Positions 1 to 34,033 of a DNA stretch of 64,000 nt are shown piece after piece (position 1 is the stretch's first letter; every line of letters starts with the position of its first letter). The DNA lies in IMG/VR virus record IMGVR_UViG_3300014204_000162, positions 1 to 64,000 of that record. One strand, written 5' to 3'. The translations under genes were made by a program, and so were the position numbers. Source of the DNA: a virus (Duplodnaviria; Caudoviricetes). The notes below the pieces were generated by a model. The model had not been told where the DNA came from. It made no database searches and saw nothing but the letters and a program-made list of their open reading frames with translations.

Positions 1-128
1 AAGTGGATACCGACTACCACAATAATTGACAGGATAAACAATAAAGCGGCATGAAAAAGGCTGATGAAGCAAGGATTAATAGTAGGAAGACATAATCAAT
101 AAGACAACCAACACAAAGGAGGGATAAG

Positions 129-953
129 TTGAACGAGTTAGCAGCAGCAAACATTATTAATCAGGACAGTACATTATTAACACCAATTGAAGTTATGTTA
201 GGGGTTGACGAGCAGGGCAGAACAACAGCAAGAAAATTATATGAGTTTTTAGGGCTTGCAGTAGGGCAATTCTCGAGATGGGGCAGAACAAATATTCTCG
301 AAAATCAATTTGCGGTAGCTGGAGAGGATTACGAGGGGTTCGACATCAATGTCGAGGGGAACATGACTAAAGATTATAAATTGTCAGCATCGTTTGCCAA
401 AAAGTTGGCAATGGGTACGCATAACGAGCGAGGGGAACAGGCTAAAAATTATTTTATTAAAGTCGAGGACAAACTTAAGCAAGTTGCAATTGATATGTCA
501 GCATTAAGCCTGGAAACGCAACTATTACTTAAATTAAGTCAGTCAATAGCCAAAAATGAACTTGAGCAGAAAAAGCTACAAACTGAGGTAAAAGAGACTA
601 AGGAAGAAGTGCAAGCCATCAAGGACATAATTATTATCAATCCCAAGGCTGAATGGCGTAGGGAAACAAACAGGATATTAAACACGATAGCTAAAGACTC
701 AGGCCAGTACAAGGAAATTAAAGAGGAAGTTTACATGGCGCTTAAAGAGCGTGGCAAATGCAGGCCAAAGACTTTAATTAGCAATTTACAAGATAGGGCA
801 ATAAAAAACGGTATGGCTCCAAGTAAGGCAGGTGATCTTAACGTCCTAGATGTGCTGGAGAATGACGCAAGACTTAGAGAGGTCTACATTCAGATAGTTA
901 AAGAAATGGCTATAAAGTACGGAGTAAAGGTTAAGCAAGAACAGGCATGCTAA
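129..953 (+). CDS. Phage antirepressor (AntA/AntB-type N-terminus, coiled-coil C-terminus)
   Basis: TARKLYEFLGL..FSRW...NILEN.FA..GEDY and 'FAKKLAM...RGEQAKNYFIKVE' are typical of AntA/AntB antirepressors; SD GGAGG upstream. Confidence 0.8.
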   Translation: MNELAAANIINQDSTLLTPIEVMLGVDEQGRTTARKLYEFLGLAVGQFSRWGRTNILENQFAVAGEDYEGFDINVEGNMTKDYKLSASFAKKLAMGTHNERGEQAKNYFIKVEDKLKQVAIDMSALSLETQLLLKLSQSIAKNELEQKKLQTEVKETKEEVQAIKDIIIINPKAEWRRETNRILNTIAKDSGQYKEIKEEVYMALKERGKCRPKTLISNLQDRAIKNGMAPSKAGDLNVLDVLENDARLREVYIQIVKEMAIKYGVKVKQEQAC

Positions 954-1015
954 AAACAATCAAGCAGCTAGAGCAGAGGAGAGCTAGGGAAATAATGGGA
1001 AAGGAGGTGAAAAAG

Positions 1016-1231
1016 ATGGAGGATATGAAAAAAGAGTGTATTAACCAGGGAGTGGAAGTCCCGGATCAGTACACATTGAGAAATAAACAATTAAAAGACA
1101 TCGAGACTGAAATTTATAAACTGTTTGATGAAAATGAAGTTACTTTTTTAGAGTATCAAAAGATTATTTCATCGATAAGTTTCAGCCTGAGAGAAGCAAG
1201 TGTTTTTACACTTAGTAAACTGAATAAATAG
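1016..1231 (+). CDS. Hypothetical phage protein (71 aa); start moved to ATG 1016
   Basis: AAGGAGGTG SD directly upstream of ATG 1016, in frame with ORF 947..1231. Confidence 0.6.
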   Translation: MEDMKKECINQGVEVPDQYTLRNKQLKDIETEIYKLFDENEVTFLEYQKIISSISFSLREASVFTLSKLNK

Positions 1232-1232
1232 C

Positions 1233-1412
1233 TTACTTTTTAGATTGTTCTTCAATTAATTGATTGTAGACTTCAATGTAACGCTTGTAGTAATTGGCAG
1301 TTAAAGCTTTTATATCATCAGCTTTGCATTCGTTATACATGTTGTATTTACTTAAAATGCCAATGGCAACGTCATTGAAATGTTCATGATTTATTTTAGT
1401 AATTTTGTCCAT
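1233..1412 (-). CDS. Small antisense-oriented hypothetical protein (MDKITKINHEHF...)
   Basis: Minus-strand SD GGGAGG (1421-1426) correctly spaced from ATG at 1412. Confidence 0.65.
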   Translation of the reverse strand: MDKITKINHEHFNDVAIGILSKYNMYNECKADDIKALTANYYKRYIEVYNQLIEEQSKK

Positions 1413-1676
1413 AATATGCACCTCCCTTCAAACAAATTTTACCACCAATGGGAGGACAAGCAAATGGGAAAGGAGGTGAAAAACACGATACATTCTATCA
1501 TTAATCATGTTACCTTGTACGGTTGGGAATGGTTCGTAGAGATGTGGATACCAAAGCGTATCGGCAGTATCAACGCCGGTTACGGCAGCAGACACAGCAG
1601 GATAGACAGGTTGTTATCTCTAGGGCATCGGTGGCGGGGAGACGTCTTATAAAAAATATAAGGAGGAATATATAAA

Positions 1677-2339
1677 ATGGCAAGTTCAAAAGTGAAGGAA
1701 GTAATTGAAATACCGGCAATAAATATTAAAGAGGTAAATTTGACAGTGGTTGGAGACTCAAGTCTTATCGTTCATAGGTTTGATGATAAGAGCAGGAGAC
1801 AGATACTTGAAAAGCAAATGAAAAAGGCTACTTCAAAAGCTAAACAGCATGAAATAAAAAATCCAGTTTTGGATTTTATCAACAGCATGTACTGGTTAGA
1901 GGGTAAGCCAGATGAAGAAGATTGCAAGACCCCGGAGGATGCAGAAAAGGCATTTAAAAAGGCAATAGAAAATGGCGCAAGATTCGGTTTCCCTTCGATA
2001 GCTTTTAAATCAGCGGCAGTATCAGCGGGTTATCGGTCAGGTATAACAAAAGATAAAGTTTCATCTTATGGAGCATTTCATATTGATAGTGAATTCGCAG
2101 AAATACAAGGTGTACCAGAAATAAGAGAAGATATGGTACGCATTATGGGTACAAGCGCTGACATAAGGTACAGAGGTGAATTCAAAAGGTGGAAAACGAT
2201 TTTTAGTGTTAAGTATGATGCTGGAATGTTCAGTCTTGAACAGGTAATAAATCTATTTAACCGTGGCGGTTTTAATTGTGGCATAGGTGAATGGAGACCT
2301 GAAAAAGGCGGCGAGCATGGTAAATTCCACATTGAATAA
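1677..2339 (+). CDS. Cas7/RAMP-like RNA-binding protein (candidate Vipr-type effector)
   Basis: N-terminal beta strand 'VNLTVVGDSSLIVHRF', central 'FGFPSIAFKSAAVSAG', and C-terminal glycine-rich loop 'GGFNCGIGEWRPEKGGEHGKFHI' resembling the RAMP G-loop; directly followed by a GGY-NN array; strong SD. Confidence 0.75.
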   Translation: MASSKVKEVIEIPAINIKEVNLTVVGDSSLIVHRFDDKSRRQILEKQMKKATSKAKQHEIKNPVLDFINSMYWLEGKPDEEDCKTPEDAEKAFKKAIENGARFGFPSIAFKSAAVSAGYRSGITKDKVSSYGAFHIDSEFAEIQGVPEIREDMVRIMGTSADIRYRGEFKRWKTIFSVKYDAGMFSLEQVINLFNRGGFNCGIGEWRPEKGGEHGKFHIE

Positions 2340-2364
2340 TTAATATAAGGTACATGTTGGTTTT

Positions 2365-2547
2365 GGCAGGCAAGGCGCGGCGGGGTTTGGTGTGTTCGGG
2401 TCTGGTGTGGTCAGGTACGGCAGGCTAGGCGGGGTCCGGCAAGGTTTGTTGTTGTGAGGTAAGACATGGTGTGGCAGGCGTGGCGAGGTGAGGTACGGTA
2501 TGGTGCGGTGCGGTTTGGTTTGGCATGGCGGGGTATGGCAGGCATGG
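2365..2547 (+). ncRNA. GGY-NN pentamer array (putative guide RNA locus), three units of 10, 10 and 12 pentamers delimited by GGCA tetramers
   Basis: GGCA at 2365-68, 2419-22, 2473-76 and 2537-40; strict 5-nt register between them; 28 of 32 pentamers begin GGT or GGC; GC-rich island in AT-rich DNA. RNA function is inferred. Confidence 0.8.
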
Positions 2548-2565
2548 AGTAAAGGGGGTGAAAAA

Positions 2566-3081
2566 ATGATTTACCAATGGAAAACGGGTTTTAATGTTAA
2601 GGACATTGACGCACAAAGAACAGGTGAATACTTTGATAGCATTGAAAAAAGGGATGGTCATGTTAACCCAAAAACAATTATAGACGAAGCAAAAGACGAA
2701 AAAGCTTTATTACATAGTTGTTTTGAATGGAATAATAACGTAGCGGCTGAAAAGTATAGGGTTGCACAGGCAAGAAACATAATAGGCAACATAATAACCG
2801 TACAGGTAAAAGAGTCGCCCAAAGAAACTCTATACGCTAAAGCAGGAGTTAAGGAAGAACCAACTCAAGTAAGCTCAAGGGCATTTGTAAACGTTAAAAA
2901 TGCAGAGGAAAAGAAGATTTATGTTTCAATTGCAACTGCATTGAATGACGATACTATGCATGACAATTTATTGGAAGAAGCAAAACAAGAACTCATAAAC
3001 TTTAAAAACAAATATTCAAAACTAAGAGAATTTGCAGAGCTATTCAGCGAGATTGACAAGACACTTGGAAAAGTAAGCTGA
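2566..3081 (+). CDS. Conserved phage hypothetical protein directly downstream of the array; start at ATG 2566
   Basis: SD GGGGGTG before ATG 2566; motif 'LHSCFEWNNNVAAEKYRVAQARNII'. The upstream extension in the ORF track is translated array sequence. Confidence 0.75.
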   Translation: MIYQWKTGFNVKDIDAQRTGEYFDSIEKRDGHVNPKTIIDEAKDEKALLHSCFEWNNNVAAEKYRVAQARNIIGNIITVQVKESPKETLYAKAGVKEEPTQVSSRAFVNVKNAEEKKIYVSIATALNDDTMHDNLLEEAKQELINFKNKYSKLREFAELFSEIDKTLGKVS

Positions 3082-3192
3082 GGAGGTAACTATTTTTGAG
3101 CCTTAAGCAACTAAGGGCATATATAAACTTCTGCATGAGCAATGGACACGAAGCTACATGGACTGGCCTGAAAATATGGAGGAGGAGTATGC

Positions 3193-3408
3193 GTGTATAA
3201 ATGGTTAAAATCACTGTTCAAGAGAAAAGGAGGAATTACTGTGAAGGGTAAAAAAGTTGATTATACCAGGACTTGTGTTGAGGAGAGAATCGGACGCCAG
3301 CTATCAGATGAGCAGTACCGGAGGGCGGTTGAGGCATCGTATAAAGAAGATGAGAAATGCCGGAACTTGCAGGAGCGTATTAATACGATTGCGAGGTGCA
3401 CGAGATGA
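3193..3408 (+). CDS. Hypothetical protein
   Basis: ORF with SD GGAGGAGG; operon-like packing. Confidence 0.5.
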   Translation: MYKWLKSLFKRKGGITVKGKKVDYTRTCVEERIGRQLSDEQYRRAVEASYKEDEKCRNLQERINTIARCTR

Positions 3409-3590
3409 TGAGCATAAAAGTCGGCAGCAAGGTTTTGGCTAAATCGCCAGATGATGCAACACCTCACGGCAGGAGAAAAGTGGTTAAAAGCGGTATCGTG
3501 TTAAAAGTTTATGACAGGTTTGTACTTGTACAGTTTCCACAGCGTAAGGAATGTTTCTTTCTAAGTGATCTGGAGGAGGTAGCGGATTGA
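3405..3590 (+). CDS. Hypothetical protein
   Basis: ATGA overlap with the previous gene; overlaps the next gene. Confidence 0.5.
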   Translation: MMSIKVGSKVLAKSPDDATPHGRRKVVKSGIVLKVYDRFVLVQFPQRKECFFLSDLEEVAD

Positions 3591-4369
3591 AAAAGTATTA
3601 TTTCAGCAAAGAGAAATTTAAGGAGAGCGGTGATGGGGCCCTATTGATGGGCGGAACAGATGATGGCGAGGAAGTAGTTTTCAATGGCACTAGGTTTGGC
3701 AGAGCAGTTATACATGGCGATGTAATTAATAAGGAATGGTGTATTGAAAAAGGCAACAGAGAGTTCAAAGTTGGTGACAAGGTACGTATCCGGCAGTGGG
3801 ACGACATGGTGAAGGAGTTCGGGTTAAGGTCACCTACGTATATAAACTGCAATGGAACTTTCACAGGAGATATGAAATATCTTTGCGGTAAAGAAATAAT
3901 AATAAGGAAAATTGATGAGGATGGTTGCATTCAAAACATTGATGGTTTCAATATTGCGACTGACATGCTCGAACATATCGAAAAAAACGAACTGGAACCA
4001 CAACCTAAAGGGTTTAGTACAGCCTTTATGATGCAGCAGCTTAGTAACTGCAGGGACAAGGTATTCAAACGCACGACTGACGACCAGACGATGAAAATAG
4101 GTAGAAATGAGAGCTTTGAGTTTCAACCTGGTTATAAAAGACTAAGCCCCGATGATAGATGGGTTGAGGTATCGCAAGAGAAAGAAGTGACTTTTATAGA
4201 AGCTGTCAAGGCGTTTGATAAAGGGGAAACCATTGCCTGCAAAAATAATGGATTGGAATGTATATACTCCCTTAAAATTGCAAATGGGAATTATATGCAT
4301 GATCATAATGGATACTCAATTAGTTCTGCTGAAATACTAATGGGCCGATGGTTTATAAAAAATGATTAA
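3587..4369 (+). CDS. Hypothetical phage protein (modular; contains 'FKVGDKVRIR' SH3-like motif)
   Basis: 260-aa ORF with SD GGAGG, coupled to neighbours. Confidence 0.65.
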   Translation: MKKYYFSKEKFKESGDGALLMGGTDDGEEVVFNGTRFGRAVIHGDVINKEWCIEKGNREFKVGDKVRIRQWDDMVKEFGLRSPTYINCNGTFTGDMKYLCGKEIIIRKIDEDGCIQNIDGFNIATDMLEHIEKNELEPQPKGFSTAFMMQQLSNCRDKVFKRTTDDQTMKIGRNESFEFQPGYKRLSPDDRWVEVSQEKEVTFIEAVKAFDKGETIACKNNGLECIYSLKIANGNYMHDHNGYSISSAEILMGRWFIKND

Positions 4370-33130: not shown

Positions 33131-33373
33131 ATGCAAGTAATATTAAGTGAAGAAGAGTACATGGAATTAAAGGAAAAGGCCGATGGGTTTGACACAATTT
33201 CGTCTACAATAAACTACAACTGGTGGAACCTTAAAGAGCATAAAATAGATAAATCAAGACCGCTTACAATAGAACTGCAAAAGATGCTTGAAGCAGTTGG
33301 AATAGACGAAGATATTGTTCAGTTTATACCGGAGAAAGTGGAAATAAAATTTAATACAAAGGAGCAAATATAA
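33131..33373 (+). CDS. Hypothetical protein
   Basis: SD AAGGAGG; 'MQVILSEEEYMELK'. Confidence 0.55.
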   Translation: MQVILSEEEYMELKEKADGFDTISSTINYNWWNLKEHKIDKSRPLTIELQKMLEAVGIDEDIVQFIPEKVEIKFNTKEQI

Positions 33374-34033
33374 GAGATTGTTATGAGAATACTTGGGTGG
33401 ATAGGATTAACATGGATGGTACTATGCTTGATAACTGATTTAATAAAAATAATAAACAGCAACAGAGTGTCTGATAGGGCTGCCTTTTTAGTTAATAGCA
33501 TTTTATCTGGAATATTTGTGTATTTCTTTGTTATGTATTTAAGATAGGCAAAAGGAGAAACCGTATGAAAATATATTATATTGTTCTGTTAATATATTTT
33601 GGCTTTTTAATTGGTTACCCTCTAGGCTATATAAGATCATCTATTCGTAATATTAAATAAAATAAGCACTTGCTTTACAAATAATCGTTTCGCCCCTTAA
33701 GCTTAATTAAAAAAATATGACATTAGGCTATTAATACCTCAGACAACTGTAAGGAGGAGAGAGGGTAGGGCCCCTACTCCGACTGGAAGGCGTCAGCATG
33801 CAAAGTAACTATGATATGGATGTTGGAAGAAGAAAAAACAAGAGAAAAGAAACAGGAACAAATTTCAGCAATTTGGTGCGACTACACTATATATAATATA
33901 GGGTTATGACACCAAAAATATAGGACTTAAAATCTTGGACACGGCATAACTACTTGATTTAGGAGTAGTTTTTTATTTGCAAAAAAAGTGTGTATTCTTT
34001 GCAAAAACATACAAAAAAAGTGTAGGTGATTTT

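What the first reader, a model, noticed from the sequence alone, without database searches (positions are those of the whole stretch)
1677..3081. Candidate phage RNA-guided system: Cas7/RAMP-like gene + GGY-NN repeat RNA + accessory gene
Seen: a 220-aa ORF ending in a glycine-rich loop (GGFNCGIGEWRPEKGGEHGKFHI), followed 25 nt after its stop by a GC-rich array in strict 5-nt register, then a gene with its own SD. No cas1/cas2, CRISPR repeats or spacers are present. Established: RAMP proteins (Cas5/6/7) carry such a C-terminal G-loop, and Cas7 polymerises along guide RNA with a fixed nucleotide period. Inference: each protomer binds one GGY and displays the variable NN for target pairing, giving a minimal programmable nucleic-acid-binding system. 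The layout matches what I recall of the recently reported phage 'VIPR' systems (Vipr protein plus GGY/NN RNA with a gapped target code); that recollection needs checking against the literature. It sits in the early lytic operon next to the antirepressor, consistent with use against competing phages or elements.
Basis: partly seen in the sequence, partly recalled or inferred. Interest (0 to 1): 0.95.

Follow-up and report, generated by a model that had tools for sequence, protein, structure and literature searches.

The report
Phage VIPR locus aimed at rival polymerases
This is a real example of the recently described phage VIPR RNA-guided DNA-silencing system (a Cas7-like protein, a GGY/NN guide-RNA array and an accessory gene), and one of its three guides matches a conserved stretch of the DNA polymerase gene of many other phages.

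Summary
The 220-aa protein (1677-2339) is a Vipr. It matches the solved SUSP1 Vipr by sequence (PDB 36pp: E 1.2e-5 alone, 1.2e-12 as a family profile). It keeps the GGY-contacting residues (H33, R166, C201, E205, W206, R207). Its AlphaFold model (pLDDT 94) hits only Cas7-type RAMPs.

The tract 2365-2543 is the only GGY/NN array in the held 78.6-kb phage record. It contains three guides of 10, 10 and 12 pentamers separated by GGCA tetramers. All ten IMG/VR relatives carry the downstream accessory gene. Nine of them, plus Gordonia phage UmaThurman, clearly carry the same array design.

VIPR was published in 2026 preprints, so this is a new member of a known kind, not a new kind.

New here: under the published 1-nt-skip rule, guide B matches at least 114 viral contigs at 20 of 20 positions. 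Every match lies in frame on YGPKFVENIV of a family A DNA polymerase, with the skipped bases on wobble positions. The held record has no such polymerase. Guides A and C have no identified target. Transcription, RNA binding and silencing are inferred, not shown.

The parts
1677..2339 (+). vipr gene: 220-aa Vipr protein, a minimal Cas7-like RAMP with a C-terminal G-loop (CGIGEWRP)
   Evidence: phmmer against PDB: 36pp_D SUSP1 Vipr, E 1.2e-5. Family profile: E 1.2e-12. AlphaFold2 model pLDDT 94.4. Top Foldseek hits are Csm3, Cmr6, type VII Cas7 and Cas7-11, probability 1.0. phrog_4652. 2903 representative relatives in the 50%-identity protein library.
2365..2543 (+). vrRNA array: three GGY/NN guide modules bounded by four GGCAGGC delimiters (2365, 2419, 2473, 2537)
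   Evidence: The same delimiter and 5n+4 module lengths occur in relatives L001-L010 and in Gordonia phage UmaThurman.
2369..2422 (+). Guide module A: 10 pentamers (one is GTT instead of GGY) plus a closing GGCA. Target not found.
   Evidence: No exact 1-nt-skip match in the viral, genome or metagenome collections. Neither 18-position half matched.
2423..2476 (+). Guide module B: 10 pentamers (three non-GGY units: GTT, TGT, GAC) plus a closing GGCA. Predicted target is the YGPKFVENIV codons of family A DNA polymerase genes of other phages.
   Evidence: At least 114 viral contigs match at 20 of 20 positions under the 1-nt-skip rule. All matches are in frame with the skip on the wobble base. 98 distinct 29-mers. 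The target gene is PF00476.
2477..2540 (+). Guide module C: 12 canonical GGY/NN pentamers plus a closing GGCA. Target not found.
   Evidence: No exact match in three collections. Partial hits at 18-19 of 24 fall in one marine lineage and are probably chance.
2550..2565 (+). Shine-Dalgarno region (AAAGGGGGTG) ahead of the accessory gene
   Evidence: Read from the sequence.
2566..3081 (+). vap-type accessory gene, 171 aa, with conserved motif LHxCFEW..AAExYR. Fold without a clear known match.
   Evidence: phrog_15946. Homologue present next to vipr in 10 of 10 IMG/VR loci and in UmaThurman; absent beside the SUSP1-like vipr. AlphaFold2 model pLDDT 90.9. No Foldseek hit at E<=1e-3; weak winged-helix-like rows only.

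Best explanation
The locus is a complete VIPR (Viral Interference Programmable Repeat) system on a temperate-type, plasmid-like phage. An earlier, unchecked note places the phage in anaerobic Clostridia.

Inferred mechanism, by homology with SUSP1 VIPR:
1. vipr, the array and vap are transcribed together from the early rightward operon.
2. Vipr protomers polymerise along each GGY/NN module. They sequester each GGY through H33, R166 and the C201-x3-E205-W206-R207 G-loop, and they expose the NN dinucleotides.
3. The GGCA tetramers break the 5-nt register, so the transcript yields three separate guides of 10, 10 and 12 units.
4. Each filament reads double-stranded DNA by the NNx (1-nt-skip) code and blocks transcription there. 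The accessory protein probably assists at the DNA.

Guide B is aimed at the codons for YGPKFVENIV, just upstream of catalytic motif C in the family A DNA polymerase of other phages, several of them proviruses. Skipped bases fall on wobble positions, so synonymous changes cannot help the target escape. The likely result is that rival or resident polymerase-encoding phages cannot replicate while this phage, which has no such polymerase in the held record, is unaffected.

Shown here: homology, fold, array anatomy, conservation in relatives and the sequence match to the target. Inferred: transcription, processing, ribonucleoprotein formation, silencing and the ecological outcome.
For: Protein:
- Sequence homology to solved SUSP1 Vipr.
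- GGY-contact residues named in 10.64898/2026.04.26.720927 are conserved: H17/H33, R138/R166, C173/C201, D177/E205, W178/W206, R179/R207.
- RAMP fold.

Array:
- The only periodic GGY/NN tract in the record; 0 of 2000 shuffles reach its periodicity.
- 9 of 10 IMG/VR homologue loci plus UmaThurman have same-strand arrays with the same GGCAGG[CT] delimiter, module lengths of 5n+4 nt and different NN content.
- vap homologue adjacent in 10 of 10 loci.

Target:
- Guide B gives at least 114 exact gapped matches. Comparable patterns from guides A and C gave 0, 0, 0, 0, 0, 0 full-length hits and 2, 16, 0, 0 hits for 18-position halves.
- All B sites are in frame in a PF00476 polymerase, with variable wobble bases.
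- The match ends exactly at the module borders.
- No polymerase A and no self-target in the held record.
- Guides from a relative (L003) hit D5-type and VapE-type primase-helicase genes in the same set of phages.
- Across 43 relatives' modules, hits at >=90% NN match occur only with a 1-nt skip: 9, against 0, 0 and 0 for skips of 0, 2 and 3. Shuffled unit order gave 0.6 per replicate.

Context:
- cI-like/cro-like pair, ANT, ParB and AntA upstream; RecT module downstream.
Against: - There is no expression, processing or binding evidence for this locus. Promoter and terminator scans are uninformative.
- Guides A and C have no target in any collection searched. Only exact matches could be searched there, whereas the paper accepts 80% NN matches.
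- The record is only about 78% complete by CheckV. The absence of its own polymerase A therefore holds only for the 78.6 kb held plus about 10 kb upstream.
- Whether the targeted phages share a host with this phage is unknown. I have only co-occurrence of relatives and targets in the same metagenomes (3300045988, 3300031853).
- The accessory protein's function is unknown.
- The VIPR type (I-VII) could not be assigned because the figures and data tables are not held.
Confidence: 0.85

Rival explanations
1. The locus is a VIPR system, but it works mainly from the prophage or plasmid state as superinfection immunity for the lysogen. It would protect against incoming polymerase-A phages rather than serve as an early lytic weapon against resident prophages.
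For: The phage looks temperate and plasmid-like: a cI-like/cro-like pair, ParA and ParB, and no integrase. The paper shows that plasmid-borne VIPR gives 10^5-fold defence against an incoming phage. Some VIPR types act as host defence.
Against: The locus lies in the rightward operon downstream of the cro-like gene and antirepressors. That region is normally repressed in a lysogen. Three of five complete target records are proviruses, which fits attack on residents. No internal promoter was detected (weak evidence).
Confidence: 0.25
2. The guide B match to the polymerase is not a functional target. It is a coincidence, or a trace of how the guide arose, and the real targets of all three guides are unknown.
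For: Guides A and C have no hits. The matched motif is extremely conserved, so any guide that encodes it would collect many hits. No experiment links them.
Against: No full-length or half-length pattern from guide A matched any collection, and C's halves gave 2 and 16. Guide B gave at least 114 hits, all in one frame of one gene, with 98 distinct site sequences. Wobble-aligned skipping is exactly the signature the papers report for natural targets. Relatives' guides hit neighbouring replication genes of the same phages, and only under the 1-nt skip.
Confidence: 0.08
3. The G-rich tract is protein-coding (a Gly/Trp/Arg-rich peptide), as annotated for the equivalent stretch, gp40, in Gordonia phage UmaThurman. 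It would not be an RNA array.
For: GenBank annotates a CDS over the equivalent tract in UmaThurman. Mechanical ORFs overlap parts of the window tract.
Against: No + strand ORF spans the window tract; only GTG 2488 onward is open. Modules are 5n+4 nt long with a -1 phase shift at each delimiter, and conservation follows a 5-nt period, not a 3-nt one. Array length and content vary freely between close relatives while the flanking genes stay aligned.
Confidence: 0.02

Closest known systems
Type II VIPR of Escherichia phage SUSP1 and the P. fulva prophage (bioRxiv 10.64898/2026.04.26.720920; structures in 10.64898/2026.04.26.720927; PDB 36pp)
   Same: Homologous Vipr protein with the same GGY-contact residues. 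GGY/NN pentamer guides of 9-16 units. A two-gene locus on a phage. No CRISPR array in the locus. Predicted targets follow the 1-nt-skip code, with skips on codon wobble positions, in genes of competing mobile elements.
   Different: Only about 30% identity, and only over the C-terminal third. The accessory gene is an unrelated family: phrog_15946 is absent beside SUSP1-like vipr. The guides are packed head to tail between vipr and vap and separated by GGCA tetramers. SUSP1-type guides are separate units, each with its own flanks and a structured 3' tail. The predicted target is a polymerase gene rather than a satellite recombinase or prophage regulators.
[quoted passage not shown]
   Same: The legend describes adjacent guides offset by 1 nt, where the end of one guide marks the start of the next. 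The -1 phase shift at each GGCA delimiter here has that appearance.
   Different: The figure, the type number and the example loci are not held, so identity with that architecture is inferred, not verified. According to the paper, the staggered architecture was not among those confirmed by small-RNA sequencing.
Class 1 CRISPR Cas7 backbone filaments (Csm3, Cmr4/6, type VII Cas7)
   Same: RRM/RAMP fold, G-loop and thumb; one protomer per fixed RNA period. These are the best structural matches.
   Different: No CRISPR repeats or spacers and no other cas genes in the locus. The period is 5 nt with three bases sequestered, not 6 nt with one flipped. TM scores are only 0.45-0.5 and identity about 10%.

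Membership tests
VIPR system | Vipr protein: a single-RRM RAMP with G-loop and thumb, homologous to published Vipr proteins | tested here: met
   36pp_D SUSP1 Vipr: E 1.2e-5 for the single sequence, 1.2e-12 for the profile. AlphaFold2 pLDDT 94.4. The listed Foldseek hits are CRISPR RAMP (Cas7-type) subunits.
VIPR system | Residues that read the GGY motif (SUSP1 H17, R138, C173, D177, W178, R179) | tested here: met
   They align to H33, R166, C201, E205, W206 and R207. R166 and R207 are invariant, and H33 is present in 57 of 64 family members. K33, E71 and M72 could not be mapped reliably.
VIPR system | Adjacent non-coding tract with at least 4 tandem YNNGG (GGY/NN) repeats | tested here: met
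   32 pentamers, 28 of them GGY; 0 of 2000 shuffles reach the periodicity; unique in the record.
VIPR system | GGY conserved and NN hypervariable among related loci | tested here: met
   Nine IMG/VR relatives plus UmaThurman keep GGY (one relative, L002, uses mostly GTT) and the GGCAGG[CT] delimiters, while NN content and module number differ.
VIPR system | Minimal locus (vipr plus a vap gene), viral genome, no CRISPR array in the locus | tested here: met
   vap homologue adjacent in 10 of 10 relatives. Phage context. G000 is an IMG/VR virus record.
VIPR system | Guides match natural targets by the 1-nt-skip (NNx) code | tested here: met
   Computational only. Guide B matches 20 of 20 positions in at least 114 contigs. 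Relatives' guides hit only at skip 1. Guides A and C are unresolved.
VIPR system | vrRNAs are transcribed, bound by Vipr and silence DNA targets | not testable with these tools
   Needs small-RNA sequencing, pull-down and reporter assays.
VIPR type II (SUSP1 clade) | Separate vrRNAs each with a conserved structured 3' tail, plus vap1 | tested here: not met
   No tails between modules; the modules abut through GGCA. No Rfam family or hammerhead. The vap family differs. Direct comparison with a SUSP1-like locus, L144.
CRISPR-Cas (class 1) | CRISPR repeat-spacer array plus multi-subunit cas operon with adaptation genes at the locus | tested here: not met
   Only vipr, the pentamer array and vap lie between the antirepressor and the recombination genes.

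The most novel reading that the evidence does not exclude
This vipr/phrog_15946-vap clade, found in Clostridia-type and actinobacterial phages, may use a self-delimiting array. A single 4-nt GGCA unit would break the Vipr filament register and so measure out guides without tails, ribozymes or a Cas6-like nuclease. Non-GGY units such as GTT would still present their NN bases. The guides would be 'broad-spectrum', aimed at invariant protein motifs of the replication genes (PolA, D5 and VapE primase-helicases) of a whole class of rival phages, assisted by an accessory protein of a new fold.
Probability: 0.4. Interest if true: 0.6.

Novelty: new member of a known kind. Interest (0 to 1): 0.45.

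Why it matters
VIPR is a months-old discovery, and only type II has been characterised (in E. coli, for SUSP1 and P. fulva VIPR).

This locus offers a clean, compact example of the tail-less, head-to-tail array design, from a phage that an earlier unchecked note assigns to anaerobic Clostridia. It also gives a concrete, testable natural target: a 29-bp site in the polymerase gene of at least 114 viral contigs.

That target extends the 'codon-periodic, escape-proof targeting' idea from satellites to the core replication genes of rival phages. Three of guide B's ten units are not GGY, yet their NN bases match the target.

The analysis also flags that GenBank phage annotations (for example Gordonia phage UmaThurman gp40) hide such arrays as hypothetical proteins.

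It does not add a new kind of system.

Tried and rejected
- Pfam gave nothing for either protein. Only PHROGs of unknown function matched.
- DNA-level search of the locus in GenBank phages found nothing.
- Exact gapped-pattern scans for guides A and C in the viral, genome and metagenome collections returned nothing.
- Both halves of A returned nothing.
- The first half of C gave 2 unrelated hits at 20-21 of 24.
- The last half of C gave 16 hits. They belong to one closely related marine lineage (membrane-protein motif TMAALLMGI), with the first three units mismatched. I treat this as one chance event multiplied by relatedness.
- A and C also have no site with 3 or fewer mismatches in five complete polymerase-A phage records, nor near the polymerase in the 114 loci.
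- Self-targeting was rejected: the best own-genome scores are 14 of 20 and 16 of 24.
- vap fold: Foldseek found no hit at E<=1e-3. VIA-align's best Z of 6 is on the generic C-terminal helical hairpin, with only weak winged-helix-like rows for the N-terminal part. The Atlas returned only viral hypothetical clusters. 'DNA-binding vap' therefore remains a guess.
- No Rfam family, including hammerhead, occurs in 1-4000.
The 93.7-kb ENA contig is not searchable as a whole.
- VIPR type assignment failed because the paper's figures and data tables are not held.

Full report
**Observation**

The stretch contains, on the + strand, three elements:
- a 220-aa ORF at 1677-2339;
- a G-rich tract whose first GGCAGGC lies 25 nt after the stop;
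- a downstream gene with a strong Shine-Dalgarno run and ATG at 2566, ending at 3081.

The tract is strongly periodic. Successive GGY triplets are exactly 5 nt apart 25 times, against 2.2 +/- 1.4 in 2000 dinucleotide-preserving shuffles, none of which reached 25. It is the only such tract on either strand of the 78,575-bp record that holds the window.

The register is not strictly 5 nt. GGCA tetramers at 2365, 2419, 2473 and 2537 each shift the phase by -1. They divide the tract into three modules of 10, 10 and 12 pentamers, each (GGYNN)n + GGCA, with lengths of 54, 54 and 64 nt. Four of the 32 units are not GGY: GTT, GTT, TGT and GAC.

**Is VIPR real?**

Yes. The library holds three 2026 preprints from one group.
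- 10.64898/2026.04.26.720920 defines VIPR. Its parts are a minimal RAMP protein (Vipr), vrRNAs of 9-16 YNNGG repeats whose NN bases specify a DNA target with one skipped base per unit, and a vap accessory gene. Most examples are on phages and proviruses. It defines seven types and several array designs, including 'staggered arrays with overlapping vrRNAs'.
- 10.64898/2026.04.26.720927 gives the structures and names the GGY-contact residues of SUSP1 Vipr.
- 10.64898/2026.10.15.759431 shows that codon-periodic targeting prevents escape.

**The protein**

- Pfam has nothing; PHROGs places it in phrog_4652, of unknown function.
- phmmer against PDB sequences finds one chain, 36pp_D 'SUSP1 Vipr protein', at E 1.2e-5 over the thumb and G-loop region.
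- A profile of 64 diverse relatives raises this to E 1.2e-12 and also aligns the first beta-strand.
- The named contact residues correspond as follows: H17 to H33, R138 to R166, C173 to C201, D177 to E205, W178 to W206 and R179 to R207. R166 and R207 are invariant in the family.
- The AlphaFold2 model is confident (pLDDT 94.4, pTM 0.87).
- Its Foldseek hits in the PDB are all CRISPR RAMP backbone subunits: Csm3, Cmr6, type VII Cas7 and Cas7-11. Probability is 1.0, E about 2e-4 and TM 0.45-0.5.
- The family is large: 6865 hits at 90% clustering and 2903 representative clusters at 50%.

**Relatives carry the same locus**

Ten IMG/VR loci encode homologues at 42-58% identity.
- Nine have a same-strand GGY/NN array right next to vipr. 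The tenth (L002) has an array built mostly of GTT/NN units.
- All use GGCAGG[CT] as delimiter, and module lengths are 44, 49, 54, 59, 64 or 69 nt, that is 5n+4.
- NN content and module number differ. Some modules recur in different arrays at different positions.
- All ten have a homologue of the downstream gene. In L010 the order is vipr-vap-array.
- The pair also occurs in isolated Gordonia and Mycobacterium phages. In Gordonia phage UmaThurman the array, with the same delimiters, is annotated as CDS gp40.
- A SUSP1-like Felixounavirus locus has separate guides with their own flanks and hairpin tails, no GGCAGGC, and no homologue of this accessory gene.

So the window belongs to a clade distinct from type II. 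Its head-to-tail, phase-shifted array fits the legend of the paper's 'staggered' design. I cannot verify the figure or assign the type number.

**The accessory gene**

- The 171-aa protein has a conserved LHxCFEW..AAExYR motif.
- It has no Pfam or PDB sequence match.
- Its model is confident (pLDDT 90.9), but no fold match is convincing. There are weak winged-helix-like rows for residues 1-125 and a generic helical hairpin for residues 121-171.
- The Atlas neighbours are viral hypothetical proteins.
- Its role is inferred only from its fixed position in the locus.

**Targets**

I converted each module to the paper's NNx query.
- There is no self-target: the best own-genome scores are 14 of 20 and 16 of 24.
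- In the viral contig collection, guides A and C have no exact match.
- All 114 sites lie in one frame of one gene and encode YGPKFVENI(V), with one Leu variant. The skipped base is always the wobble position.
- There are 98 distinct 29-mers, with near-maximal synonymous variation at the skip positions.
- The gene is a family A DNA polymerase (PF00476). The site lies about 25 codons upstream of the VHDE motif.
- The match begins and ends exactly at the module borders, which supports the module definition.
- It includes the NN bases of the three non-GGY units.

Controls:
- A and C full patterns gave 0 hits in the viral, genome and metagenome collections.
- Four 18-position half patterns gave 2, 16, 0 and 0. 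The 16 hits come from one marine lineage at 18-19 of 24 and are probably chance.

Independent support:
- Guides from relative L003 match a D5_N/DUF5906 primase-helicase (18 of 18 in six loci) and a VapE-like gene (17 of 20 in ten loci) in the same set of polymerase-A phages.
- Over 43 relatives' modules, hits at >=90% NN match occur only at skip 1: 9, against 0, 0 and 0 for skips of 0, 2 and 3. Shuffled unit order gave 0.6 per replicate.

The held record has no polymerase A. It is only about 78% complete. Three of five complete target records are proviruses. Relatives of this locus and target contigs co-occur in metagenomes 3300045988 and 3300031853.

**Context**

- Upstream lie a divergent cI-like/cro-like HTH pair, ANT, ParB_N and AntA proteins. 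Further upstream are ParA, FtsK and DnaA_N genes.
- Downstream lie an SMC-like ATPase, RecT and an MBL-fold protein.
- No integrase or serine recombinase is present in the held record.
- This looks like a temperate, plasmid-like phage with the VIPR locus in the early rightward operon.
- There is no Rfam family, no convincing internal promoter and no terminator within the array, so co-transcription with vipr and vap is the simplest reading. That is an inference.
- The same phage sequence is present, identical across the overlapping stretches I fetched, in contigs from two other samples.

**Verdict**

- The system is a new member of the published VIPR kind: a non-type-II clade with a GGCA-delimited, tail-less array.
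- The added value is the predicted natural target of guide B, together with the anatomy of the array.
- Nothing here is categorically new. Function at this locus remains untested, and two of the three guides have no identified target.

Noticed in passing
L143:2116-2432 (Gordonia phage UmaThurman NC_031249.1, about 33350-33666): The CDS annotated as gp40 'hypothetical protein' is a GGY/NN vrRNA array with the same GGCAGG[CT] delimiters. It lies between a vipr homologue (gp39) and a vap homologue (gp41), just after the immunity repressor and excise genes. Similar mis-annotation is likely in other actinophages.
   Followed up: partly
L002:4635-5010: A relative with Vipr 58% identical to the window's has an array built mostly of GTT/NN units, with few GGY units, but the same GGCAGG[CT] delimiters. 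This resembles the non-canonical VIPR repeats reported in 10.64898/2026.10.21.760802. The window's own degenerate units are also GTT, TGT and GAC.
   Followed up: no
L005:4947-5015 = L007:4755-4823; L007:5027-5075 ~ L008:4923-4976: Identical or near-identical guide modules sit at different positions in the arrays of related phages. Modules therefore seem to be gained, lost or shuffled as cassettes, like CRISPR spacers.
   Followed up: no
L145:1-9300 (upstream of the window start in a Logan contig of the same phage): ParA, FtsK/SpoIIIE, a DnaA_N-domain protein, a divergent cI-like/cro-like HTH pair, ANT, ParB_N and AntA. No integrase is found in the 78.6-kb record. The phage may be maintained as a plasmid prophage.
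   Followed up: partly
window 2488-2565: Gene callers (193-aa product) and the mechanical ORF (GTG 2488) extend the accessory gene into the array. Homologue N-termini and the Shine-Dalgarno run point to ATG 2566. The minus-strand ORFs 2411-2545 and 2425-2661 lie over the array and are probably spurious.
   Followed up: yes
L127-L142 (16 viral contigs): The last nine units of guide C match a membrane-protein motif (TMAALLMGI) in a group of closely related viral contigs, at 18-19 of 24 positions over the full guide. This is probably one chance match multiplied by relatedness, but it was not excluded as a degenerate target.
   Followed up: partly
If so, a VIPR system and a type IV-B system would sit together on one phage. 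I did not examine this.
   Followed up: no
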